A stretch of 64,000 nt of DNA from a phage, in sequence record NC_102531.1; one strand, given 5' to 3'. The notes below the pieces were generated by a model that was not told where the DNA came from, did not search any database, and saw only the letters and a program-made list of their open reading frames with translations. A program made the translations under genes and the position numbers. Below, piece after piece: positions 26,131 through 45,189 of the stretch (positions are counted from its first letter, which is position 1; each line of letters starts with the position of its first letter).

Positions 26131-27252
26131 TTAGATAAAACGCTTGAACATAGAAGGTGATGAGATTGATGGAATCACACAAGGAAGTGCTACCTCCTCT
26201 TTCTCCAGGAAATTAATCGCAGAAGCTACACAGTCAGCCCAGTCGTCTTTTCTGTTAAATGTTGATCTTTCCCCGTTGAATTTTTCAAGTTCGGTCAGAA
26301 ATGCTTCCAGAGTATCAGGATGGAAACTGGATTTTACAATCCTTACCATTCCTTGTTGGGCAAGATTGGCAAAAGGTGAGAACCTTGTCAGTTTAGACTT
26401 GTTGGAAGGCATTGGGTCTTCTTCAACCCTAAACCCTTCGGCAAGCAAGGATCTGGAGGAGGTTAAGAACTCACTCTTACCTGCCTGACCGGGGTCCACA
26501 GAGAATACGATTATACAATCATCACCATCAAACTGCGCCTGTTTCCTGATGATCACATCTCGTTCACCAGCCTTTTTACAGAACTTACCTTCCAGACCTG
26601 TGGAATACCTCCCGTCATCCACGTTCTCAGGACAATAATCCCCGGACAGGTAATAAAAGCCGTCGCTATCTTTACTTACCTTAACACTGGCGGTAAAGTC
26701 AGGAAATTTATTACCGGAAGTTCTCTCGGTTCCTGCTTTATCCCATGCCCTGCAAGACACTGATCCAAGGGGTACTCTATCGGCATCACGAAGGAAAGAT
26801 CTTTGAAAATAGTTTGCACCCTCAGGCTTTGCAAACCAGTTACCATGGAGAAGCTGAGCTTTTTCAAGCTCGGGCAGACCTTCAAGGAAAGCAAGGTATT
26901 CTGGGTTGTCTCTCAAGCAGACAGGATTATCGAATATTGTTGCGCCTATAAACGAGAATGACAACGGTCTCGGCTTGATCTCTACACCCAGTCCGTTAAC
27001 AGTGGTGTATTTCTCTATCAACTCTTCTTTAGAGTCTCCCCAGATAAATTCACCGTCGCGTCGGATAAAATATCTTTTCTTACCGCATTTCTCCGGATCT
27101 GGATACCCCTCATCGTCCAACCACCACCTAACCAGTTTGGCAAGCATGTGTTCTGAATCGGGGTTACAGCTGATAACCATTCTTGATGGATACTTTGACT
27201 GAGATCGCAGACGAGACATCAGGTAGTCTATCTGCTCCCATTCGAATTGTGT
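26131..27252 (-). CDS. terL: terminase large subunit, exon 2 (nuclease domain)
   Basis: Reading frame open upstream of the annotated Met back to the predicted 3' splice site; joins in frame to exon 1 (…MVCFDEG|TQFEWEQIDYLMSRL…). Confidence 0.6.
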   Translation of the reverse strand, partial: TQFEWEQIDYLMSRLRSQSKYPSRMVISCNPDSEHMLAKLVRWWLDDEGYPDPEKCGKKRYFIRRDGEFIWGDSKEELIEKYTTVNGLGVEIKPRPLSFSFIGATIFDNPVCLRDNPEYLAFLEGLPELEKAQLLHGNWFAKPEGANYFQRSFLRDADRVPLGSVSCRAWDKAGTERTSGNKFPDFTASVKVSKDSDGFYYLSGDYCPENVDDGRYSTGLEGKFCKKAGERDVIIRKQAQFDGDDCIIVFSVDPGQAGKSEFLTSSRSLLAEGFRVEEDPMPSNKSKLTRFSPFANLAQQGMVRIVKSSFHPDTLEAFLTELEKFNGERSTFNRKDDWADCVASAINFLEKEEVALPCVIPSISSPSMFKRFI

Positions 27253-28134
27253 CGTTTATGTTCGGGCAAGGTCGCTAGTCTTGCCCCGCCATTTTCAGGC
27301 AGCTGCATGTCTCCATGCAGACCAGACTATATCTTATGAATGTGTAAATACTCTGCCGCTCTAAGAATAGTTTCCTCATCTTCTTGGAAGAAACCTAAAG
27401 CTCTGTTGCATTTATCACAAAGCAACCCTCTTACAGCACCAGTTTTATGGTCATGATCAACACAAAAGAAATCTCTGTACCCTTGCATCCTATACTCATT
27501 AAGAGATATTCTACAAATGGCACACTTATGATCTTGATCTGAGAGTAGACGATAGTATTCATCTTTTGTTATGTGAAATTTCTTCTCAATCTGATAAAAC
27601 TTTTCACACATCTTACACCTGTTCGTAACCAGATATACTTTACCATAGTCACGTTTTGTGTAAAAACTATCAGCGAGCATACTTTCATGACAAGATTTGC
27701 ATTCAAAAAGTTCACCTTTCTTCAGCAAGTCTTGAATAAACAATGCTGCGTCATCTCTCTTAACCATATTTTTATTTTTACGAGATCCACCCTTCCTGTA
27801 GTACATATAGCATTCCTTGCATGTACCTGAGTATCCATCCTTGCTCTTAGATGATAAAAAGAAATCATCAATAGGCAGAACTCTTTGGCAATCCATACAT
27901 TTTTAGTATTACACATTCACCCTCCCGTTTCGAATCGCTTGATTCTACGTCTTTCGACTAGTCGTTGAACGTTCATCCTCTCGGATGCTTCGCTGCGGAT
28001 TATCTAAATTAACACACTGTTACCCTACCTTCGATCTCTCTTCGAAGCCTCTATTATGTTACCATAACAGGTTGGTGGTGTCAATAATAAAGATTTCCCC
28101 GCAATTAGGGAGGTTTTACGAGAGCTACAAATTA
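27253..28134 (-). mobile_element. group I self-splicing intron carrying an HNH homing endonuclease gene, inserted in the terminase large subunit gene
   Basis: Exon 1 ends GGU followed by in-frame UAA; minus strand contains UAAUUGCGGGGAAA (P4-like), GUUCAACGACUAGUC (R/P7 5' strand) and AAGAUAUAGUC (S/P7 3' strand) with GACUA/UAGUC complementarity; internal ORF 27327..27896. Confidence 0.7.
27327..27896 (-). CDS. intron-encoded HNH / Endonuclease VII-like homing endonuclease
   Basis: 189 aa; Cys-rich N-terminus with CxxC pairs; C-terminal CVDHDHKTGAVRGLLCDKCNRALG matches the T4 EndoVII-type His-Me finger; stop codon lies inside the intron S element. Confidence 0.7.
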   Translation of the reverse strand: MDCQRVLPIDDFFLSSKSKDGYSGTCKECYMYYRKGGSRKNKNMVKRDDAALFIQDLLKKGELFECKSCHESMLADSFYTKRDYGKVYLVTNRCKMCEKFYQIEKKFHITKDEYYRLLSDQDHKCAICRISLNEYRMQGYRDFFCVDHDHKTGAVRGLLCDKCNRALGFFQEDEETILRAAEYLHIHKI

Positions 28135-28560
28135 ACCCTCATCGAAGCAAACCATGGTGTACTCAAGACCCTGATGGTTAAGCTTATCTTGCACATACTC
28201 CATATGGCAGTATTTTACAACAGCTCCCTTTTTGCTTCTATCCCACTTACCAGTGTTCGGATCAAACCGTGGAAAAATGAACTTATGATCCTTCTCTCTG
28301 AACTTTGGCTTAATGTTTTCAGGCAGATCACTATAAATAGCTACTGCTTTAGGCCATAGTCCACCCTCACCTTCCAACTGTGGGGTTGTTCTTCGGAACA
28401 TAACCACAGAGCTGTGTGGGTCATCAATAATTTTAAGTGGCATCAACTGCAAGAGGAACGACTTGCCAGACCCTGCGGCACCGCCGATTACCAAGATATC
28501 TGCATCGTTTTCGAGGATCATCTTCTGCTTTTCAGAACACGGTCCGTAAATCTTAGACAT
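28135..28560 (-). CDS. terL: terminase large subunit, exon 1 (ATPase domain)
   Basis: Walker A VIGGAAGSGKS, Walker B MVCFDE; ORF ends with stop right after the predicted 5' splice site. Confidence 0.8.
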
Positions 28561-29663: not shown

Positions 29664-29740
29664 TGGTCTCCACGGAGTGATTCGAACACTCGACCTCCTG
29701 ATCCCAAATCAGGCGCTCTACCAAGCTGAGCTACGCGGAG
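29664..29740 (-). tRNA. tRNA-Pro (anticodon UGG)
   Basis: Manual fold: 7 bp acceptor, D arm, anticodon stem CCUGA/UCAGG with loop UUUGGGA, T loop GTTCGAATC, encoded CCA. Confidence 0.75.
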
Positions 29741-29751
29741 TATTTACTATT

Positions 29752-29826
29752 TGGTGGCCCTGGGTGGAATTGAACCACCGTCTGGCGATTATGAGTCGCT
29801 TGCTTGAACCTTCCAGCTACAGGGCC
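29752..29826 (-). tRNA. tRNA-Met (anticodon CAU; initiator/elongator/Ile2 not distinguished)
   Basis: Manual fold: acceptor GGCCCUG/CAGGGCC, anticodon loop CUCAUAA, T loop GGTTCAATTCC, encoded CCA. Confidence 0.7.
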
Positions 29827-29827
29827 T

Positions 29828-29903
29828 TGGTGCTGATGGCAGGACTTGAACCTACAACCTATTGATTACAAATCAATTGCACTACCGATTGTGCTACATC
29901 AGC
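29828..29903 (-). tRNA. tRNA-Thr (anticodon UGU)
   Basis: Manual fold: acceptor GCUGAUG/CAUCAGC, D arm GCAC/GUGC, anticodon stem AUUGA/UCAAU with loop UUUGUAA, encoded CCA. Confidence 0.75.
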
Positions 29904-29908
29904 AAAAA

Positions 29909-30007
29909 GGTGCTAGGTGATGGAATCGAACCACCTATGTATTCAACGACTACCTCGTCTATTTTCAGGATTAAAAATCCTCGCCCTTGCCAAAGGGCTT
30001 ACCTAGC
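29909..30007 (-). tRNA. aberrant tRNA-like element (anticodon unresolved; possible UUU loop)
   Basis: Perfect 7 bp acceptor (GCUAGGU/ACCUAGC), D arm GCCC/GGGC and T arm GGUGG-UUCGAUU-CCAUC, but ~99 nt long, anticodon region is a palindrome GGAUUUUUAAUCC, ~30 nt extra arm, 3' end ACCU rather than CCA. Confidence 0.35.
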
Positions 30008-30105
30008 TCAGTATGTTGACCATGTTGCTAGTCGGCGATGACGACTGTAACATTTGATAATCCGGTTCTGCTTCCGGCTTTCGCTTAATTACAAGGTCAA
30101 CAATG

Positions 30106-30196
30106 TGGCGGAGAGTAATGGAATCGAACCATCATCGAGTCATACCCAACGGGACGGTTTTCAAGACCGCTTGAGCACCATTGCTCCCTACCCTCC
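30106..30196 (-). tRNA. tRNA-Ser (anticodon UGA)
   Basis: Manual fold: type II tRNA, acceptor GGAGGGU/ACUCUCC, anticodon stem GCGGU/ACCGU with loop CUUGAAA, long variable arm, encoded GCCA. Confidence 0.75.
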
Positions 30197-30310
30197 TTTA
30201 TAAATTATACTGATAATGACACTGATTTTCGAGCAGTTAGTGACTAGTATAAACGACGATAAATATCAATGCCATTATCTGTATTATTTATGCATCTAAA
30301 AATATAAATT

Positions 30311-30397
30311 TGGTGGGGAGTGGTGGAGTCGAACCACCCGAGTCGCAATGACAATAGATTTACAGTCTACACCGCTACCTCTACGGGATAACTCCCC
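30311..30397 (-). tRNA. tRNA-Tyr (anticodon GUA)
   Basis: Manual fold: type II tRNA, acceptor GGGGAGU/ACUCCCC, anticodon stem GUAGA/UCUAU with loop CUGUAAA, T arm GGUGG-UUCGACU-CCACC, encoded CCA. Confidence 0.75.
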
Positions 30398-30401
30398 AAT
30401 T

Positions 30402-30476
30402 TGGCACCCCGTACTGGACTCGAACCAGTGTCAACGGCTTAGAAGGCCGCTGCTTTATCCACTAAGCTAACAGGGC
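30402..30476 (-). tRNA. tRNA-Arg (anticodon UCU)
   Basis: Manual fold: acceptor GCCCUGU/ACGGGGU (two G-U pairs), D arm GCUU/AAGC, anticodon stem GCGGC/GCCGU with loop CUUCUAA, encoded CCA. Confidence 0.7.
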
Positions 30477-30572
30477 ACTGGGTGGCTTTCTTTTACACCT
30501 TAGCCGCCAGAAAAGGTGGGAGACCATGTTTACAATATTACACTGTTAAGCAAAGTTTGTCAAGAAAATATT

Positions 30573-33413: not shown

Positions 33414-33968
33414 TTACTCCCTGCTGTCAATATCAAAACTCATTGCAATACGGTATGCCTCTTCTAATGGTAAGAGTCTCCCCCACACATCCCAACCGAC
33501 ATCAAGCTGCCTGCCAAACAACTGTTGTGTGGTTCCGTGAGCATGACCGAACAGTTGGACTGATCCGTGAGGCTTTCTGTTCCACTTTGCAAACTGGTAA
33601 TGGCTCATACAGATCAAATTCTTGTTGTGGCGAAGCTCGTAATAATCTACAACCTCATGACCGAACTCTTTCATAATTCTGACAGTCGTCCTTGTGTCAT
33701 GGTTGCCACGAACAAGAATAATATGTCCGTTCAACATATTTAGAATATCTGGAAGTAAGTTGTTGATATTCTTATCATTAGTGCACGCAATATCTCCCAA
33801 GTGGAACACAGTGTCTGCAGGTGACACAACAGAGTTCCACTCGGCGATGATTCCTGCATTCATACTGTCAAGATTACGATTATACTGAGATCTGTGTTTT
33901 TGACATGAATCAAACTCCATGACCCGCTGGTGGAGAAAGTGTGTGTCGCTTGTTACAAAGTATTTCAT
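33414..33968 (-). CDS. calcineurin-like metallophosphoesterase (candidate RNA 3'-phosphatase, Pnkp-like)
   Basis: Signature motifs SDTH, GDIA, GNHD, GHAH in order; likely start at MKYFVTSDTHF (ORF track 33414..34073 extends into the kinase gene). Confidence 0.6.
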   Translation of the reverse strand: MKYFVTSDTHFLHQRVMEFDSCQKHRSQYNRNLDSMNAGIIAEWNSVVSPADTVFHLGDIACTNDKNINNLLPDILNMLNGHIILVRGNHDTRTTVRIMKEFGHEVVDYYELRHNKNLICMSHYQFAKWNRKPHGSVQLFGHAHGTTQQLFGRQLDVGWDVWGRLLPLEEAYRIAMSFDIDSRE

Positions 33969-33975
33969 ACATTCC

Positions 33976-34386
33976 TCATTTAAGTTTAATGCAGTTTTTA
34001 AGCTGGCGTTCCATACGATCCACAACCCTGTCTGGAACATCATGAATGCTTTTATTACCGTGGCGGTTTTCAACCACGATCACGGTATAACTATACCCAT
34101 TACTGATTGCCATGTCAATATATTCTTGCACATGTTTTTCTTTTGTAAACGTATTACTTACCACGATACGGTCGTATCCCATACGCATCATATCTTCTAC
34201 GTTATCTTTGCACCATTTTGCTGCAAGTGTTACTTTACTTGCATCCCAGTTGTAATTTCCGTCATCGTCGTACCAGAACATGTCGTTCTCAAAATGTGGA
34301 TACAGACCTTCTAAAGATAGCGCATTTGCCAGTGTTGATTTGCCAGACCCTGGTAGACCACGCACGATATATAGCATTTTAGACAT
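33976..34386 (-). CDS. P-loop polynucleotide kinase-like protein (candidate 5'-OH kinase)
   Basis: Walker A GLPGSGKST close to N-terminus, T4 Pnk kinase-domain-like; likely start MSKMLYIV preceded by GGAGG. Confidence 0.5.
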   Translation of the reverse strand: MSKMLYIVRGLPGSGKSTLANALSLEGLYPHFENDMFWYDDDGNYNWDASKVTLAAKWCKDNVEDMMRMGYDRIVVSNTFTKEKHVQEYIDMAISNGYSYTVIVVENRHGNKSIHDVPDRVVDRMERQLKNCIKLK

Positions 34387-34486
34387 AGTAATCCTCCGTT
34401 TTAATTTTAATGATAGTATACCTAACTGTTTTGTTAATTTCAAGTGTTGACACTAGGTTATTTGTGTGGCAGGATAGACTGACAAA

Positions 34487-35422
34487 ATGACAAATGAGGA
34501 ACGTATGATGAAGTATTTTAATGCAGACGACTTGGTTGACAAAGGTCTTGTAACCAGTAGATATTACCCAGATCTTGGGTTAAAGATCTATAAATATGCC
34601 AGAAAAGTATTTTACAACAATTTATGGCATTTGTCCCCTCGTTTACTAGAGTGCCGAGGCATTGTTGTCGGTAATGAAGGAAATGTTGTGGCATGGCCCT
34701 TCACAAAAGTGTTTAACTTGGGAGAAAACTCCACCAACCTGCCTGACAATAAGCTTGTGACGGCGGTAGAGAAAAAGAACGGATTCCTTGGTGTGGTATC
34801 ATCTCATAAAGGTGAACTATTGTTCTCAACAACCGGATCTATTGATTCTCCATATTGTAACCTCGCAAAGGAAACCATCCAGGAGCAATGTGGTAATTTA
34901 GATCTTATCAAGAAGGTTATGGGTAATGAAAACATGACATTCATGTTTGAAATTTGTCACCCTTCAGATCCGCATATTGTTCAGGAAGATCATGGCGCAT
35001 ATTTGATAGGTTGCAGATATAATGATTCTGGAATAATGCTACCAGAGGCAGCTTTAGATGGGATTGCCAAATACCTTGGTGCAAAACGTCCTCACACTGT
35101 GCGTGAAATTCCGTTCAGCTATGCAAAAGAATTAGCTGCAGAAACAAGAGGCGAAGGGTATATGATCCGTAAGCCTTACTACCCTTATGACCTGCAGCTG
35201 AAGATCAAGTCTCCATACTATCTGGCACGGAAGGCCGTAATGAGGTGTAAAGCTTGGAAGATTTGGGATGATGATATCTTTAAACGTGTTGACGAAGAGT
35301 TTTACGGCATGGTAAACTTCATTCGTAGCAATTACACAGAAGATGTGTGGAACTGTCTCCTGGAGCAGGAACGCCGCGAGATACTTGACTGCTATTTCCA
35401 CAACGAGGACTATATGCAATGA
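34487..35422 (+). CDS. RNA ligase, T4 Rnl1 (RnlA)-like
   Basis: Recognisable similarity to T4 Rnl1 N-terminal region (LECRGIVV, KVFNLGEN, adenylation motif EKKNGFLG, STTGSIDS). Confidence 0.6.
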   Translation: MTNEERMMKYFNADDLVDKGLVTSRYYPDLGLKIYKYARKVFYNNLWHLSPRLLECRGIVVGNEGNVVAWPFTKVFNLGENSTNLPDNKLVTAVEKKNGFLGVVSSHKGELLFSTTGSIDSPYCNLAKETIQEQCGNLDLIKKVMGNENMTFMFEICHPSDPHIVQEDHGAYLIGCRYNDSGIMLPEAALDGIAKYLGAKRPHTVREIPFSYAKELAAETRGEGYMIRKPYYPYDLQLKIKSPYYLARKAVMRCKAWKIWDDDIFKRVDEEFYGMVNFIRSNYTEDVWNCLLEQERREILDCYFHNEDYMQ

Positions 35423-35769
35423 AGAAGTTGATTGTGTGGCTGGATGACTTGAGAGATCCGTCAAATTATGGGCTCCCAGACGCTATTTGGCTAAAGAATT
35501 CCTCCGAGTTTATGGATTTTATTGACGATAATAGAAAGCTCTACAGACGCGTTTCTGAGTGGCATATGGACAACGACCTTGGAGAGGTATTCGAAGGGTA
35601 CGATTGCCTATCTATGTTGGAGGAAAAATTTGTATTTGGTAAGCCTCCTGTAGTTGACAACGTGAAGATTTTCGTGCATACTTCTAACCCATCAGCTGCT
35701 CGTAAATTCATGCTTGCAGCTGACTCGTTTAAAAAGTTCGGAATAGAGATTAAACAAAACATCTACTGA
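35419..35769 (+). CDS. hypothetical protein (partner of Sir2 gene)
   Basis: 116 aa ORF overlapping the Rnl stop and ending 9 nt before the Sir2 start. Confidence 0.35.
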   Translation: MKKLIVWLDDLRDPSNYGLPDAIWLKNSSEFMDFIDDNRKLYRRVSEWHMDNDLGEVFEGYDCLSMLEEKFVFGKPPVVDNVKIFVHTSNPSAARKFMLAADSFKKFGIEIKQNIY

Positions 35770-35777
35770 GGACACTT

Positions 35778-36539
35778 ATGCGACGACTGATCATTATCTC
35801 CGGTGCTGGTTTGAGCGCTGAATCTGGTATCCCCACTTTCCGGTCTGGTGGCACTGCAATGTGGGAGAATTTCAGCATCAATGAGGTGTGTAACATCCAC
35901 ACCTTCGCCAAGAACTACTATAAGGTGCATGACTTTTACAATGCACGACGTGTAGCTCTGGGCAGTGTTGATCCTAACCTTGCACATCTCCGGATCGCTG
36001 AGTGGTATTCCCGCTGGTCTGGTCGTGTGATCAACATTACCACCAATGTGGATGATTTGCTGGAGCGTGCTGGTGTAAAACATGAAGATATTTTACATGT
36101 CCACGGGTATTTGCCAGAAATAGTCTATGAGGACGATGAAGGAAGTAACGTTATTAAGGACATTGGATACTCTGAGGTAGATGCAGGAAAGTATACCTGG
36201 GTTAAGCCTAATGTAGTGTTCTTCGGAGAAGTAGCTCCGAAGTATACAGACATGTACGACCTGTTGACTTCCCTTACGAGTAATGATATGGTTATCCTTG
36301 TAGGGTGTTCCAACACAGTTATCAATTTTAACTGGGAGCTATTCCCTGCCTGCAATAAGGGAACCAAACTACTGATCGTTAACAAATACGACTCACAGCA
36401 TCTAGAGGAGAATGGCATTTCACGTAGTGATATTTACCAATATGAGGATCGCGGCATCCCAGTTTGGTTTAACGGGGCGGTTGATGCTTTCTCTGATAAA
36501 ACATTCATTGAGATCGTAGAAAACTTTATGGAACTTTAA
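35778..36539 (+). CDS. Sir2 (sirtuin) family NAD-dependent deacylase/NADase-like protein
   Basis: N-terminal GAGLSAESGIPTFRS (NAD-binding), TNVDDLL and HVHG motifs; no CxxC zinc module seen. Confidence 0.65.
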   Translation: MRRLIIISGAGLSAESGIPTFRSGGTAMWENFSINEVCNIHTFAKNYYKVHDFYNARRVALGSVDPNLAHLRIAEWYSRWSGRVINITTNVDDLLERAGVKHEDILHVHGYLPEIVYEDDEGSNVIKDIGYSEVDAGKYTWVKPNVVFFGEVAPKYTDMYDLLTSLTSNDMVILVGCSNTVINFNWELFPACNKGTKLLIVNKYDSQHLEENGISRSDIYQYEDRGIPVWFNGAVDAFSDKTFIEIVENFMEL

Positions 36540-44199: not shown

Positions 44200-45189
44200 T
44201 TGACGATGATGACAAAGTTAACTCTTGAGCAAATTTTAACACTAAAGCAACAGGGATACACTAATAGACAAATTGCTCGTGAATTTTTAGGCCGTGAGTC
44301 ACGTGAGAGCTGGATCCGACTACAGCTTAAACGTGCACAAGAGAATATGTCAGAGATTGTAGGAGAAGCAACGGAGCGCTTCCTTGAAGAGCACAAAGGT
44401 GCTAAAGTTTGGGTGTATGATACAGAAACATCCCCAACAAACGGCTGGTTCTTTGGGCACTATAAGACCAACATTCAAACCTGTGGTATTGAAGTTATGC
44501 CCTATATGCTAACTTTCGCAGGTAAGTGGTTAGACAGCCCTAGTGTGGTTGACTGCGCTCTTCCCGATTACAAAATGTGGGATGAGGATATTCACAATGA
44601 TCTCGAATTGATTCAGGATTTGTGGTATTATCTGGATAAATGTGATGTCGCAGTAGCCCACAATTCAGGTTTTGACTGCGGGTGGGCCAACCAACGATTT
44701 GCATTTCACGGGTTGCCTCCAACAAGCCCCTACAAAGAGGTTGACACCCTTAAAATGATCAAGAAGGCATTCCGTTTGAATGCAAACACTTTGGAGTATG
44801 CATGCAAATACTTCCAACTTGCCCGACAGAAACTGATTGACCACACATTTGAAATGTGGATCAAGTGTGTTCACGGTGACCTTGAGGCGTTTAAACAGAT
44901 GCGGGAGTACAATGTTGGTGATATCTTGTCTCTGGAAGGCCTGTATTTGCTGGCTCGCCCGTTTACTAAGCAGCACCCAAATATGTCATTGTACTATCAA
45001 GACGAGGAGCCAAAAGTTCGTTGTCCACGCTGTGGTGGAGAACACCTTCACGAGGAAGAAGCTTTGGCGTATACTCAACTGAGCGCATTTAAAACATACC
45101 GCTGCGAAGGTTGTGGATCTGTTGTTCGTGATCGTAACAACATCCGTACCAGAGAAGAAATGAAAAACACCCTGATTCAGATAATCTAA
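44200..45189 (+). CDS. DEDDh 3'-5' exonuclease with C-terminal zinc ribbon
   Basis: VYDTETS (Exo I), AHNSGFD (Exo III, DEDDh type), C-terminal CPRCGG...CEGCG. Confidence 0.5.
   Translation: MTMMTKLTLEQILTLKQQGYTNRQIAREFLGRESRESWIRLQLKRAQENMSEIVGEATERFLEEHKGAKVWVYDTETSPTNGWFFGHYKTNIQTCGIEVMPYMLTFAGKWLDSPSVVDCALPDYKMWDEDIHNDLELIQDLWYYLDKCDVAVAHNSGFDCGWANQRFAFHGLPPTSPYKEVDTLKMIKKAFRLNANTLEYACKYFQLARQKLIDHTFEMWIKCVHGDLEAFKQMREYNVGDILSLEGLYLLARPFTKQHPNMSLYYQDEEPKVRCPRCGGEHLHEEEALAYTQLSAFKTYRCEGCGSVVRDRNNIRTREEMKNTLIQII

What the first reader, a model, noticed from the sequence alone, without database searches (positions are those of the whole stretch)
29664..30476. Phage tRNA array (Pro-UGG, Met-CAU, Thr-UGU, Ser-UGA, Tyr-GUA, Arg-UCU) on the late strand
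Six confidently foldable tRNA genes plus one aberrant tRNA-like element lie in under 850 bp between the spanin/terminase genes and early-region genes. Such arrays can supplement rare codons, but several tRNAs of these amino-acid types are documented targets of host anticodon nucleases and toxins, so together with the nearby RNA repair genes the array may serve as nuclease-resistant replacement tRNAs. Met-CAU and Thr-UGU are separated by only about 1 nt, implying processing from a common precursor.
Basis: partly seen in the sequence, partly recalled or inferred. Interest (0 to 1): 0.6.

Follow-up and report, generated by a model that had tools for sequence, protein, structure and literature searches.

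The report
Known rV5 phage tRNA operon
This is the already published tRNA gene cluster of an rV5-like E. coli phage, which mainly supplies tRNAs for codons the phage uses heavily and the host rarely, plus two small structured RNAs of unknown function in the same operon.

Summary
ARAGORN calls exactly the seven genes at 29664-30476 (minus strand). The window is an rV5-like coliphage (Vequintavirus, 99.3-99.8% identical to published genomes). Its six tRNAs were described in 2013, so the array is already known.

One correction: 'Met-CAU' is a tRNA-Ile2 (lysidine-type) AUA decoder.

The four codons most over-used by the phage relative to E. coli (AGA, AGG, AUA, ACA) are exactly those read by its Arg-UCU, Ile2 and Thr-UGU tRNAs (permutation p about 5e-4). 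Five of six anticodon loops are identical to the host isoacceptor. T4-style codon supplementation is the best explanation: five anticodons match T4, as does the Thr-1nt-Ile dimer.

An RNA-repair cassette (kinase, phosphoesterase, Rnl1, cREC) does lie 3-5 kb away, and the anticodon stems differ from host. An added anti-nuclease benefit is therefore not excluded, but it has no specific sequence support.

Two parts are less ordinary:
- The 'aberrant' element is a covariation-supported tRNA-like RNA found across the subfamily. It has a Sec-like D arm, a giant variable arm and a non-canonical anticodon loop that varies by lineage.
- The Ser-odd spacer holds a structured element shared with the phage lambda late leader.

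Neither has a known function.

The parts
30535..30563 (-). Sigma-70-type promoter of the tRNA operon (TTGACA-17-TAATAT)
   Evidence: Consensus scan, 10 of 12 matches. The same site is annotated P(tRNA) in rV5 NC_011041. Activity and timing were not tested.
30402..30476 (-). tRNA-Arg(UCU), reads AGA/AGG, CCA encoded
   Evidence: ARAGORN; Rfam tRNA 67.8 bits. Anticodon loop is identical to host argU and the stem differs at 3 positions. AGA is 9.7x and AGG 7.8x enriched in phage ORFs.
30311..30397 (-). tRNA-Tyr(GUA), class II, CCA encoded, 4 nt after Arg
   Evidence: ARAGORN; Rfam tRNA 29.9 bits, just above the gathering score. Loop is identical to host tyrU.
30197..30310 (-). AT-rich 114-nt spacer forming a long hairpin. 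It contains a promoter-like site (TCGAAA-17-TATAAT, 30204-30232) just upstream of Ser.
   Evidence: RNAfold z = -4.45; promoter scan. Homologs were found only in Vequintavirus genomes. Function not tested.
30106..30196 (-). tRNA-Ser(UGA), atypical class II tRNA with a 6-bp D stem, G73, CCA encoded
   Evidence: ARAGORN. Missed by RF00005 and matched only by the tRNA-Sec model at 41.6 bits, below its gathering score of 47. Loop is identical to host serT. A homolog (80.7% over the aligned stretch, 3' end of Ser plus spacer) in P1-like phage D6 is followed by the same spacer element.
30014..30102 (-). Structured spacer element: closing helix plus two hairpins around the core AAUUAAGCGA..CCGGAAGCAGAACCGG..GUCGUCAUCGCCGAC..AGCAAC. 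It is shared with the lambda late leader, D6-like phage-plasmids and a Salmonella siphophage.
   Evidence: blastn 83% to lambda 44866-44952; alignments A2 and A7. The closing helix pairs in every type using different sequence. More than 120 IMG/VR contigs carry it, as do 426 of 5426 E. coli genomes, never annotated. No Rfam family matches.
29909..30007 (-). Odd tRNA-like RNA with a 7-bp acceptor stem, A8, a 6-bp D stem with 4-nt loop, a 5-bp 'anticodon' stem with UUUUA loop (or 4 bp plus UUUUUAA), a 31-nt variable region with its own hairpin, a normal T arm, and the 3' end A73-CC-U
   Evidence: ARAGORN 'tRNA-???'; Rfam tRNA 35.5 bits; RNAfold z = -3.66. There are 14 distinct homologs in five Vequintavirinae genera: 99.3% of cells paired, 10 of 22 pairs with compensatory changes, 0 of 500 shuffles as good. 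RNAalifold recovers the same fold.
29828..29903 (-). tRNA-Thr(UGU), reads ACA, CCA encoded, 5 nt after the odd element
   Evidence: ARAGORN; Rfam 76.8 bits. The loop differs from host thrU only at position 32, U for C. ACA is 3.9x enriched.
29752..29826 (-). tRNA-Ile2 (CAU, presumably lysidine-modified; annotated 'Met' in GenBank), reads AUA, 1 nt after Thr
   Evidence: ARAGORN 'Met'; Rfam 60 bits. Best host match is ileX at 76%, with identical positions 28-42, plus C4:G69, C5:G68, C29:G41, U12:A23 and A73. The 5' acceptor strand equals that of T4 tRNA-Ile. AUA is 4.2x enriched while ATG is 0.96x.
29664..29740 (-). tRNA-Pro(UGG), CCA encoded, last gene of the array
   Evidence: ARAGORN; Rfam 66.4 bits. 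It is 82% identical to T4 tRNA-Pro, with an identical anticodon arm, against 78% to host proM.
33414..35769 (.). Context, not part of the operon: an RNA-repair cassette. It comprises a metallophosphoesterase (33414-33968, minus), a PNK-like P-loop kinase (33976-34386, minus), an Rnl1-family RNA ligase (34487-35422, plus) and a cREC cyclic-phosphate-processing domain protein (35419-35769, plus).
   Evidence: Pfam Metallophos_2, AAA_33, RNA_lig_T4_1 and cREC_REC. PHROGs phosphoesterase, ATPase/polynucleotide kinase, and RNA ligase. rV5 annotation gp076-gp079.

Best explanation
This is the tRNA operon of an rV5-like coliphage. It is a polycistronic unit driven by its own sigma-70-type promoter, and host RNase P plus 3' trimming enzymes presumably cut it into individual RNAs.

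Six products are ordinary decoders: Arg-UCU, Tyr-GUA, Ser-UGA, Thr-UGU, Ile2-CAU (lysidine) and Pro-UGG. Their main job is to raise the supply of isoacceptors that E. coli keeps scarce, for codons that this 43.5% GC phage uses far more than its host does. Those codons are AGA/AGG, AUA and ACA, and to a lesser degree CCU/CCA and UCU/UCA. T4 uses the same solution, with five identical anticodons and the same Thr-Ile dimeric precursor.

The operon also carries two non-decoding structured RNAs:
- a tRNA-shaped RNA conserved across Vequintavirinae;
- a roughly 90-nt three-helix element also found in the lambda late leader.

Both are probably released as stable small RNAs by the same processing. Their functions are unknown.

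Shown: gene calls, identity determinants, loop identity to host, codon statistics, covariation, and distribution. Inferred: transcription from the promoter, processing, lysidine modification, and the actual benefit to translation.
For: - The seven calls and their scores.
- Identity to published rV5 genomes with the same annotated tRNAs and promoter, and to the 2013 description (PMC3606486).
- Ile2 determinants and identity to ileX and T4 Ile.
- Codon enrichment: AGA 9.7x, AGG 7.8x, ATA 4.2x and ACA 3.9x are the top four of all codons. The cognate codons as a set give p = 4.9e-4.
- Loops are identical to host in 5 of 6 tRNAs.
- T4 cluster layout.
- Promoter.
- Spacers of 1-11 nt, and encoded CCA.
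- Covariation of the odd element and of the spacer element.
Against: - Tyr codons are not rare in the host (TAC 1.7x, TAT 1.5x), and CCA is only 1.3x enriched. Codon bias does not account equally for every member.
- GGA and CTT are enriched more than 2x, yet the phage has no matching tRNA.
- The host codon sample is 41 genes from one 50-kb region, and phage ORFs were called mechanically.
- A close relative, JES2013, lacks Tyr, Ser and both non-decoding RNAs, so these are dispensable at least in the laboratory.
- There are no expression, processing or modification data.
Confidence: 0.75

Rival explanations
1. The array exists mainly to replace or outnumber host tRNAs destroyed by anticodon nucleases and related defences (colicin D on Arg, colicin E5 and retron-Eco7 on Tyr, PrrC/PARIS on Lys). 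It would work together with the nearby RNA-repair cassette.
For: - The RNA-repair cassette is real.
- Arg and Tyr are documented targets, and phage tRNA-Tyr and tRNA-Lys are proven counter-defences in T5 (PMC11555353; PMC11464382).
- Every anticodon stem differs from the host by 2-4 bases.
- Tyr is poorly explained by codon bias.
- A strong consensus promoter would give abundance, which alone rescued T5 from retron-Eco7.
Against: - Anticodon loops are identical to host in 5 of 6 tRNAs, including the colicin D (38/39) and colicin E5 (34/35) cleavage sites.
- The members best explained by codon bias (Arg-UCU, Ile2, Thr-UGU) are the rarest host isoacceptors.
- Ile2, Thr, Ser and Pro are not known E. 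coli nuclease targets in the papers read.
- There are no resistance data for Vequintavirus.
Confidence: 0.25
2. The odd element is a working tRNA-Lys(UUU), as annotated in the BASEL genomes. With its altered stem and body it could be a PrrC/PARIS-proof lysine tRNA.
For: - In the window the loop can be read as U-U-UUU-A-A with A73. That gives the LysRS elements (UUU, A73) and the U36-A37-A38 context for t6A (identity sets quoted from memory).
- The loop differs from host lysT only at position 32, and the stem differs at 5 positions including 41.
- AriB cuts between positions 40 and 41.
- AAG is 2.4x enriched.
Against: - Homologs in other genera have other loops (UAU; CAUCCA, CCUCCA, CAGCCA, CCUCAA; CAUCAAA) and other discriminators (U or C).
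- The 32:38 positions covary as a Watson-Crick pair (C:G in 8 sequences, U:A in 4), which leaves a 5-6-nt loop.
- The element has A8, no nucleotide 26/27, a 31-nt variable region and no encoded CCA.
- JES2013 lacks it.
Confidence: 0.12
3. In this phage the odd element is a decaying pseudogene of a tRNA-like RNA that is functional only in other Vequintavirinae genera.
For: - The Vequintavirus and Avunavirus copies have lost the encoded U73-CCA, have a shorter variable arm (31 against 39-40 nt) and a shorter loop.
- JES2013 has recombined it away.
- The roughly 120 Vequintavirus genomes are too similar overall for conservation to be informative.
Against: - All helices are intact in the window copy.
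- Compensatory changes separate Vequintavirus from Avunavirus in the acceptor stem (A:U against G:C) and in the variable-arm stem (ACGA/UCGU against ACGG/CCGU).
- T4 tRNAs also lack encoded CCA.
Confidence: 0.15
4. The odd element is a stop-codon suppressor tRNA, as some GenBank records say ('tRNA-TERM', tta or suppressor).
For: - The annotation in JLBYU08 and pEp_SNUABM_01.
- A central UCA triplet in the Henunavirus, NINP13076 and L185 copies.
Against: - In the window the 'tta' call comes from model register, not from pairing. The paired structure gives UUU or a 5-nt loop.
- The UCA-type loops have A33 instead of U33.
- The 62 long window ORFs were called with the standard code. Stop-codon read-through was not specifically examined.
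Confidence: 0.03

Closest known systems
The annotated tRNA cluster of Escherichia phage rV5 (NC_011041; Kropinski et al. 2013, PMC3606486)
   Same: Same genes at 99.3% DNA identity, in the same order, with the same promoter and the same neighbours. The codon-usage argument for Arg, Thr and Pro was already made.
   Different: The paper lists six tRNAs, calls the CAU gene Met ('seemingly unwarranted') and does not mention the seventh element or the spacer element. GenBank records label the seventh inconsistently: none, OTHER, Lys, TERM or ???.
Phage T4 tRNA cluster with its stable RNAs rnaC and rnaD
   Same: Five identical anticodons (Arg-UCU, Ile-CAU, Thr-UGU, Ser-UGA, Pro-UGG) and the same Thr-1nt-Ile dimer. 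The Pro anticodon arm is identical. Both clusters carry two extra structured RNAs of unknown function alongside the tRNAs.
   Different: Gene order differs. T4 has Gln, Leu and Gly and no Tyr. T4 carries a segB homing endonuclease. rnaC and rnaD are not homologous to the two extra RNAs here: my model of the odd element scores at most 25 bits on T4, and only on ordinary tRNAs.
T5 tRNA-Tyr and tRNA-Lys as counter-defence (retron-Eco7, PrrC, PARIS), and the anticodon-loop-mutation hypothesis
   Same: These are phage-encoded copies of tRNAs that defences destroy, expressed from strong promoters. This phage also encodes Tyr, and has an RNA-repair cassette.
   Different: Here the loops are host-identical in 5 of 6 tRNAs. 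No canonical tRNA-Lys is present, and no experiment links Vequintavirus tRNAs to any defence in the papers found.
tRNA-Sec (RF01852) and other class II or non-canonical tRNAs
   Same: The odd element has a 6-bp D stem with a 4-nt D loop, no U8, a long variable arm and a G19:C56-type elbow pair. tRNA-Sec is the best Rfam family for two homologs, and some homologs have a CAUCAAA loop against the Sec model consensus CUUCAAA.
   Different: The acceptor plus T helix is 7+5 bp rather than 13. The discriminator is A, U or C, whereas bacterial tRNA-Sec has G73 (from memory). The window has no UCA. All scores fall below the gathering threshold. The loop is 5-6 nt and the variable region is 31-40 nt with invariant A-rich flanks.

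Membership tests
Canonical bacterial-type tRNA genes (Rfam RF00005) | Covariance-model score at or above the gathering score of 29 bits | tested here: met
   Thr 76.8, Arg 67.8, Pro 66.4, CAU 60.0, Tyr 29.9. Ser fails RF00005 and is called only by ARAGORN and the Sec model.
Canonical bacterial-type tRNA genes (Rfam RF00005) | 7-nt anticodon loop with U33 and a purine at 37, closed by a 5-bp stem | tested here: met
   Met for all six decoders. Not met for the odd element, whose stem closes to a 5-6-nt loop.
tRNA-Ile2 (lysidine, AUA decoder) for the CAU gene | CAU anticodon with the TilS and IleRS determinants C4:G69, C5:G68, C29:G41, U12:A23 and A73 (determinant set quoted from memory: Ikeuchi 2005, Nureki 1994). 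Must not be an initiator. | tested here: met
   All are present, and G1:C72 excludes an initiator. Positions 28-42 are identical to host ileX. metT is not among the top four matches.
tRNA-Ile2 (lysidine, AUA decoder) for the CAU gene | C34 converted to lysidine and the tRNA charged with isoleucine | not testable with these tools
   Needs tRNA mass spectrometry or sequencing. Indirect support: AUA is 4.2x enriched while ATG is 0.96x.
T4-type phage tRNA operon for codon supplementation | Clustered tRNAs with very short spacers (dimeric precursors) under a host-type promoter | tested here: met
   Spacers of 1, 4, 5 and 11 nt. Promoter TTGACA-17-TAATAT.
T4-type phage tRNA operon for codon supplementation | Cognate codons over-represented in the phage relative to the host | tested here: met
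   Ranks 1, 3, 4, 13, 16 and 24 of 59; permutation p = 4.9e-4.
Nuclease-resistant replacement tRNAs (van den Berg 2023; T5 tRNA-Lys) | Substitutions in the anticodon loop at or near the cleavage site, relative to the host isoacceptor | tested here: not met
   No loop differences in Arg, Tyr, Ser, Ile2 or Pro. Thr has one difference, at position 32.
Nuclease-resistant replacement tRNAs (van den Berg 2023; T5 tRNA-Lys) | Substitutions in the anticodon stem that block recognition (as for PARIS AriB, which cuts between 40 and 41) | tested here: inconclusive
   The stems differ by 2-4 bases, but the recognition rules for the relevant nucleases are unknown.
Nuclease-resistant replacement tRNAs (van den Berg 2023; T5 tRNA-Lys) | Resistance to cleavage, or rescue of infection, shown experimentally | not testable with these tools
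   No Vequintavirus data in the papers found.
tRNA-Sec, for the odd element | 13-bp acceptor plus T helix (8/5 or 9/4), UCA anticodon, G73 (bacterial discriminator, from memory), Rfam gathering score 47 | tested here: not met
   The helix is 7+5 bp. The loop is UUUUA or UUUUUAA and the discriminator is A73 in the window. The best homolog scores 37.6 bits.
tRNA-Sec, for the odd element | 6-bp D stem with 4-nt loop, and a long variable arm | tested here: met
   RNAalifold pairs columns 10-15 with 20-25, loop UGGC or UGUC. The variable region is 31-40 nt and contains a hairpin.
tRNA-Lys(UUU), for the odd element | UUU in a canonical 7-nt loop and A73, conserved among orthologs, with a class I (short) variable loop | tested here: not met
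   UUU and A73 occur only in Vequintavirus copies. Other genera differ. The variable region is 31 nt, position 8 is A, and the stem is 4 bp if the loop is read as 7 nt.

The most novel reading that the evidence does not exclude
The 'aberrant tRNA' is not a failed tRNA. It would be a previously undescribed class of phage non-decoding tRNA mimic, with the following properties:
- It is conserved across at least five Vequintavirinae genera.
- It is cut out of the tRNA operon like a tRNA and carries U73-CCA in most lineages.
- Its Sec-like D arm, oversized variable arm and 5-6-nt lineage-variable loop keep it off the decoding pathway.

It would then act either as a decoy or sponge for tRNA-targeting host defences, or as an aminoacyl carrier outside translation. 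The neighbouring lambda-late-leader-like element would be a second new, horizontally mobile phage RNA.
Probability: 0.2. Interest if true: 0.7.

Novelty: already known. Interest (0 to 1): 0.3.

Why it matters
For the array itself, little changes. It is a textbook-type phage tRNA operon in a well-sequenced phage genus, and the data favour the classical codon-supplementation role over the newer anti-nuclease idea.

Two practical points follow:
- The 'tRNA-Met' label in the rV5 reference and in other Vequintavirus records seen here (JLBYU08, JES2013) should read tRNA-Ile2. That removes the puzzle raised in the 2013 paper.
- The seventh gene is annotated five different ways or not at all, although it is a real, conserved RNA.

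If that tRNA-shaped RNA and the lambda-like spacer element turn out to have functions, they would be new small RNAs in very widely used model and therapeutic phages. The element is present in lambda itself and in 8% of complete E. coli genomes. Simple deletions would make them directly testable.

Tried and rejected
- Rfam at permissive thresholds found no family for the window spacers or for the lambda copy.
- A full-text search for the core sequence of the spacer element found no paper. A search for the lambdoid tRNA genes ileZ/argN/argO returned nothing useful.
- Homology of the odd element to T4 rnaC/rnaD was rejected. My covariance model scores at most 25 bits on the T4 cluster, and only on ordinary tRNAs.
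- The exact T-arm motif of the odd element is absent from 185,579 representative bacterial and archaeal genomes, so it is not a captured host gene.
- A looser 5' pattern gave 92 IMG/VR stretches, nearly all chance. The model confirmed only one new copy, L185.
- The region downstream of the odd element in other genera is not conserved, so it is not part of a larger RNA.
- The Tyr-Ser spacer has no homologs outside Vequintavirus.
- PDB sequence searches for the kinase and the ligase found nothing. The phosphoesterase matched only a hypothetical protein.
- The readings of the odd element as tRNA-Sec, as a suppressor and as tRNA-Lys each fail at least one defining feature (see the membership tests).
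- I did not use the protein homology, structure-prediction or metagenome tools, because the question concerns RNA genes and the phage is already identified.
Full report
**Observation**

ARAGORN on the whole 64-kb window finds seven genes and no others.
- Pro-UGG 29664-29740
- a CAU tRNA 29752-29826
- Thr-UGU 29828-29903
- an unclassifiable 99-nt call 29909-30007
- Ser-UGA 30106-30196
- Tyr-GUA 30311-30397
- Arg-UCU 30402-30476

Rfam's general tRNA model passes its gathering score for six of these: Thr 76.8, Arg 67.8, Pro 66.4, CAU 60.0, the odd element 35.5 and Tyr 29.9 bits. Ser is missed by that model and matches only the tRNA-Sec model, below threshold. Spacers are 4, 114, 98, 5, 1 and 11 nt. 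All genes except the odd one encode CCA.

**Where the window comes from**

The 2.5 kb around the array is 99.3-99.8% identical to rV5-like coliphages of genus Vequintavirus, including the reference rV5 (NC_011041). In that record the same six tRNAs, a sigma-70 promoter 'P(tRNA)' and the same neighbours are annotated. Downstream lie a hypothetical ORF, two spanins and the large terminase. Upstream lie small ORFs, each with a sigma-70 promoter.

The 2013 genome paper reports six tRNAs and argues from codon usage for Arg, Thr and Pro. It calls the methionine tRNA 'seemingly unwarranted' (PMC3606486). The array is thus already known. GenBank records treat the seventh element inconsistently: not annotated, tRNA-OTHER, tRNA-Lys, tRNA-TERM(tta), or tRNA-???(atcc).

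**The CAU tRNA is Ile2, not Met**

I fetched the host genes from E. coli MG1655 and the T4 cluster.
- The best match of the CAU tRNA is ileX, at 76%. The elongator Met tRNA is not among the top four matches.
- Positions 28-42 (GCGA-CUCAUAA-UCGC) are identical to ileX. metT has CAUCA-CUCAUAA-UGAUG.
- It has C4:G69 and C5:G68, which I recall as the TilS determinants. It also has C29:G41, U12:A23 and A73, which I recall as IleRS determinants.
- G1:C72 excludes an initiator.
- Its first seven bases, GGCCCUG, equal those of T4 tRNA-Ile.
- In T4, Thr and Ile are adjacent in the same order and separated by one base, exactly as here (coordinates).

Lysidine modification itself cannot be tested here.

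**Codon usage**

I used 62 non-overlapping ATG-started ORFs of at least 100 codons from the window (16,593 codons). For comparison I used 41 ORFs called the same way from a 50-kb stretch of MG1655 (14,727 codons).

The four codons most enriched in the phage are AGA (9.7x), AGG (7.8x), ATA (4.2x) and ACA (3.9x). These are read by Arg-UCU, Ile2 and Thr-UGU. CCT (2.9x), TCT (2.1x), TCA (1.8x), TAC (1.7x) and CCA (1.3x) follow.

The six Watson-Crick cognate codons rank 1, 3, 4, 13, 16 and 24 of 59. A random set of six codons reaches their mean enrichment in 0.05% of 200,000 draws. AGA and AUA are somewhat more frequent in the structural genes downstream than in the rest of the window. The host isoacceptors concerned are single-copy or low-abundance species in E. 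coli; this is established knowledge, not tested here.

**Comparison with host tRNAs and the anti-nuclease idea**

Overall identity to the host isoacceptors is only 70-78%. The seven-base anticodon loops, however, are identical to the host for Arg, Tyr, Ser, Ile2 and Pro. Thr differs only at position 32. This covers the colicin D (38/39) and colicin E5 (34/35) cleavage sites. The anticodon stems differ by 2-4 bases.

Two experimental papers limit what sequence comparison can exclude:
- PARIS AriB cuts tRNA-Lys in the stem between 40 and 41, and one base-pair swap confers resistance (PMC11464382).
- T5 escapes retron-Eco7 through sheer abundance of tRNA-Tyr. Host tRNA-Tyr under the phage promoter also rescues (PMC11555353).

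My reading is that codon supplementation is well supported. An additional buffering role against tRNA depletion, most plausibly for Tyr and Arg, is possible but has no specific support. I found no paper linking Vequintavirus tRNAs to any defence.

**The odd element**

It folds as a cloverleaf (z = -3.66). blastn finds homologs in 184 phage records. I collected 14 distinct sequences from Vequintavirus, Avunavirus, Seunavirus, Mydovirus and Henunavirus.

On this alignment 99.3% of cells are paired, and 10 of 22 pairs show compensatory double changes. None of 500 shuffles reaches the observed covariation score of 0.441, and slid controls give at most 0.094. RNAalifold independently predicts the same fold.

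Several features depart from a normal tRNA:
- A8 and U14 are invariant, where tRNAs have U8 and A14.
- The D arm is a 6-bp stem with a 4-nt loop, UGGC or UGUC.
- The third loop base covaries with T-loop position 56 (G:C in 9 sequences, U:A in 5). This is the elbow contact of a real L-shaped tRNA.
- The 'anticodon' stem closes with a fifth covarying pair (C:G in 8, U:A in 4), leaving a 5-6-nt loop.
- The loop sequence changes by lineage: UUUUA, UUAUA, CAUCCA, CCUCCA, CAGCCA, CCUCAA. The Henunavirus type has a 4-bp stem with CAUCAAA.
- The variable region is 31-40 nt. Its hairpin is hypervariable but always paired, and its A-rich flanks are invariant.

Most genera encode U73-CCA. The two E. coli-phage genera do not.

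Rfam gives tRNA-Sec as the best family for two homologs, below threshold. It gives no match at all for the PVP-SE1, Ro1 and BIS47 copies, which explains why the element is unannotated there. The invariant T-arm motif occurs in 12 IMG/VR contigs and in none of 185,579 representative prokaryotic genomes. A covariance model built from the alignment found one further divergent copy, L185 at 98 bits with loop AAUCAAG, and nothing in T4.

The element fails the defining features of tRNA-Sec (7+5 bp helix, no UCA in the window). It also fails those of tRNA-Lys (not conserved, class II body) and of a suppressor (A33, register artefact).

In the window it is best described as the Vequintavirus ortholog of a subfamily-wide tRNA mimic of unknown function. 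The close relative JES2013 has lost it, together with Tyr and Ser, through recombination at the shared T arm. It is therefore not essential.

**The spacer element**

The 98 nt between Ser and the odd element contain a roughly 75-nt core that blastn matches at 83% to phage lambda 44866-44952. That lambda position lies between orf-64 and gene S, in the late leader. The core also matches P1-like phage D6, where it again follows a homologous tRNA-Ser(UGA), and a Salmonella siphophage.
- A core pattern hits more than 120 IMG/VR contigs.
- The lambda copy is found in 426 of 5426 complete E. coli genomes, on chromosomes and on roughly 90-kb plasmids, and is never annotated.
- Each sequence type folds with a closing helix built from different sequence: GUUGACCUUGU/ACAUGGUCAAC here, GUUGUGCUG/CAGCACAAC in lambda, and AAGAGUAUUUGGCU/AGCCAAGUGCUCUU in D6.
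- The internal hairpin is GUCG/CGAC here against GGCG/CGCC in lambda.
- No Rfam family matches and no paper contains the core sequence.

It lies on the transcribed strand in both lambda and this phage. I did not get further than showing that it is a conserved, horizontally spread, probably RNA-level element.

**Mechanism and verdict**

The most likely picture is a promoter-driven polycistronic precursor (promoter at 30563-30535). A possible second promoter lies in the AT-rich hairpin spacer before Ser. Host tRNA-processing enzymes would cut the precursor into six decoders, which relieve the scarcity of tRNAs for AGA/AGG, AUA, ACA and some NNA/NNU codons, and two structured by-products with unknown roles. 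The gene calls, identity elements, codon statistics and covariation are shown. Transcription, processing, modification and benefit are inferred.

The array is already known and ordinary, so interest is low. The residual interest lies in the two unannotated structured RNAs.

Noticed in passing
window 30014-102 (minus strand); lambda J02459 44866-44952 (L003:1201-1287): A roughly 90-nt element with a covarying closing helix and two hairpins is shared between this tRNA operon, the phage lambda late leader, D6/P1-like phage-plasmids and a Salmonella siphophage. It occurs in 426 of 5426 complete E. coli genomes, is never annotated, and has no Rfam family.
   Followed up: partly
L009:1311-1532 (Escherichia phage JES2013): This close relative has only Arg, Thr, CAU and Pro. 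The Tyr-to-odd stretch is replaced by about 220 nt that include a Tyr-like 5' part fused, at the shared T arm, to the 3' end of the odd element. This suggests recombination between tRNA T arms.
   Followed up: partly
L065:4061-4174 (IMG/VR contig): A copy of the spacer element has a D6-type 5' flank and a lambda-type 3' flank, so its closing helix cannot form. It looks like a recombination junction inside the conserved core.
   Followed up: no
window 30106-30196 (minus strand); L007:1439-1525 (phage D6): The phage tRNA-Ser(UGA) has a 6-bp D stem like tRNA-Sec and is missed by the general Rfam tRNA model. Its D6 homolog repairs the one A-G mismatch in that stem to C:G. In D6 the gene is annotated on the wrong strand relative to the ARAGORN call.
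   Followed up: partly
window 26131-28560 (minus strand): The large terminase gene is split into three ORFs (26131-27219, 27327-27896, 28132-28560). The region is about 414 nt shorter than in rV5, where the gene is annotated as joined from three pieces around an HNH endonuclease. The intervening-sequence content evidently varies between close relatives.
   Followed up: no
window 35419-36539 (plus strand): A cREC 'cyclic-phosphate processing' domain protein and a Sir2-family protein lie immediately after the Rnl1 ligase gene. This extends the RNA-repair cassette into a possible NAD-linked module.
   Followed up: no
GenBank MG0656xx records (hits H4, H5, H11, H15-H17 and others): Eighteen or nineteen records named 'Campylobacter phage', with host Campylobacter jejuni, are about 99% identical to rV5-like coliphages over this region. 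The host labels are probably wrong.
   Followed up: no
L025:1105-1497 (Raoultella phage Ro1): An HNH endonuclease gene is inserted between tRNA-Thr and the odd tRNA-like element. This recalls the segB homing endonuclease inside the T4 tRNA cluster.
   Followed up: no
window 30197-30310 (minus strand): The 114-nt AT-rich spacer between Tyr and Ser folds into a long, near-perfect hairpin (z = -4.45) that overlaps a promoter-like site. It is found only in Vequintavirus.
   Followed up: partly
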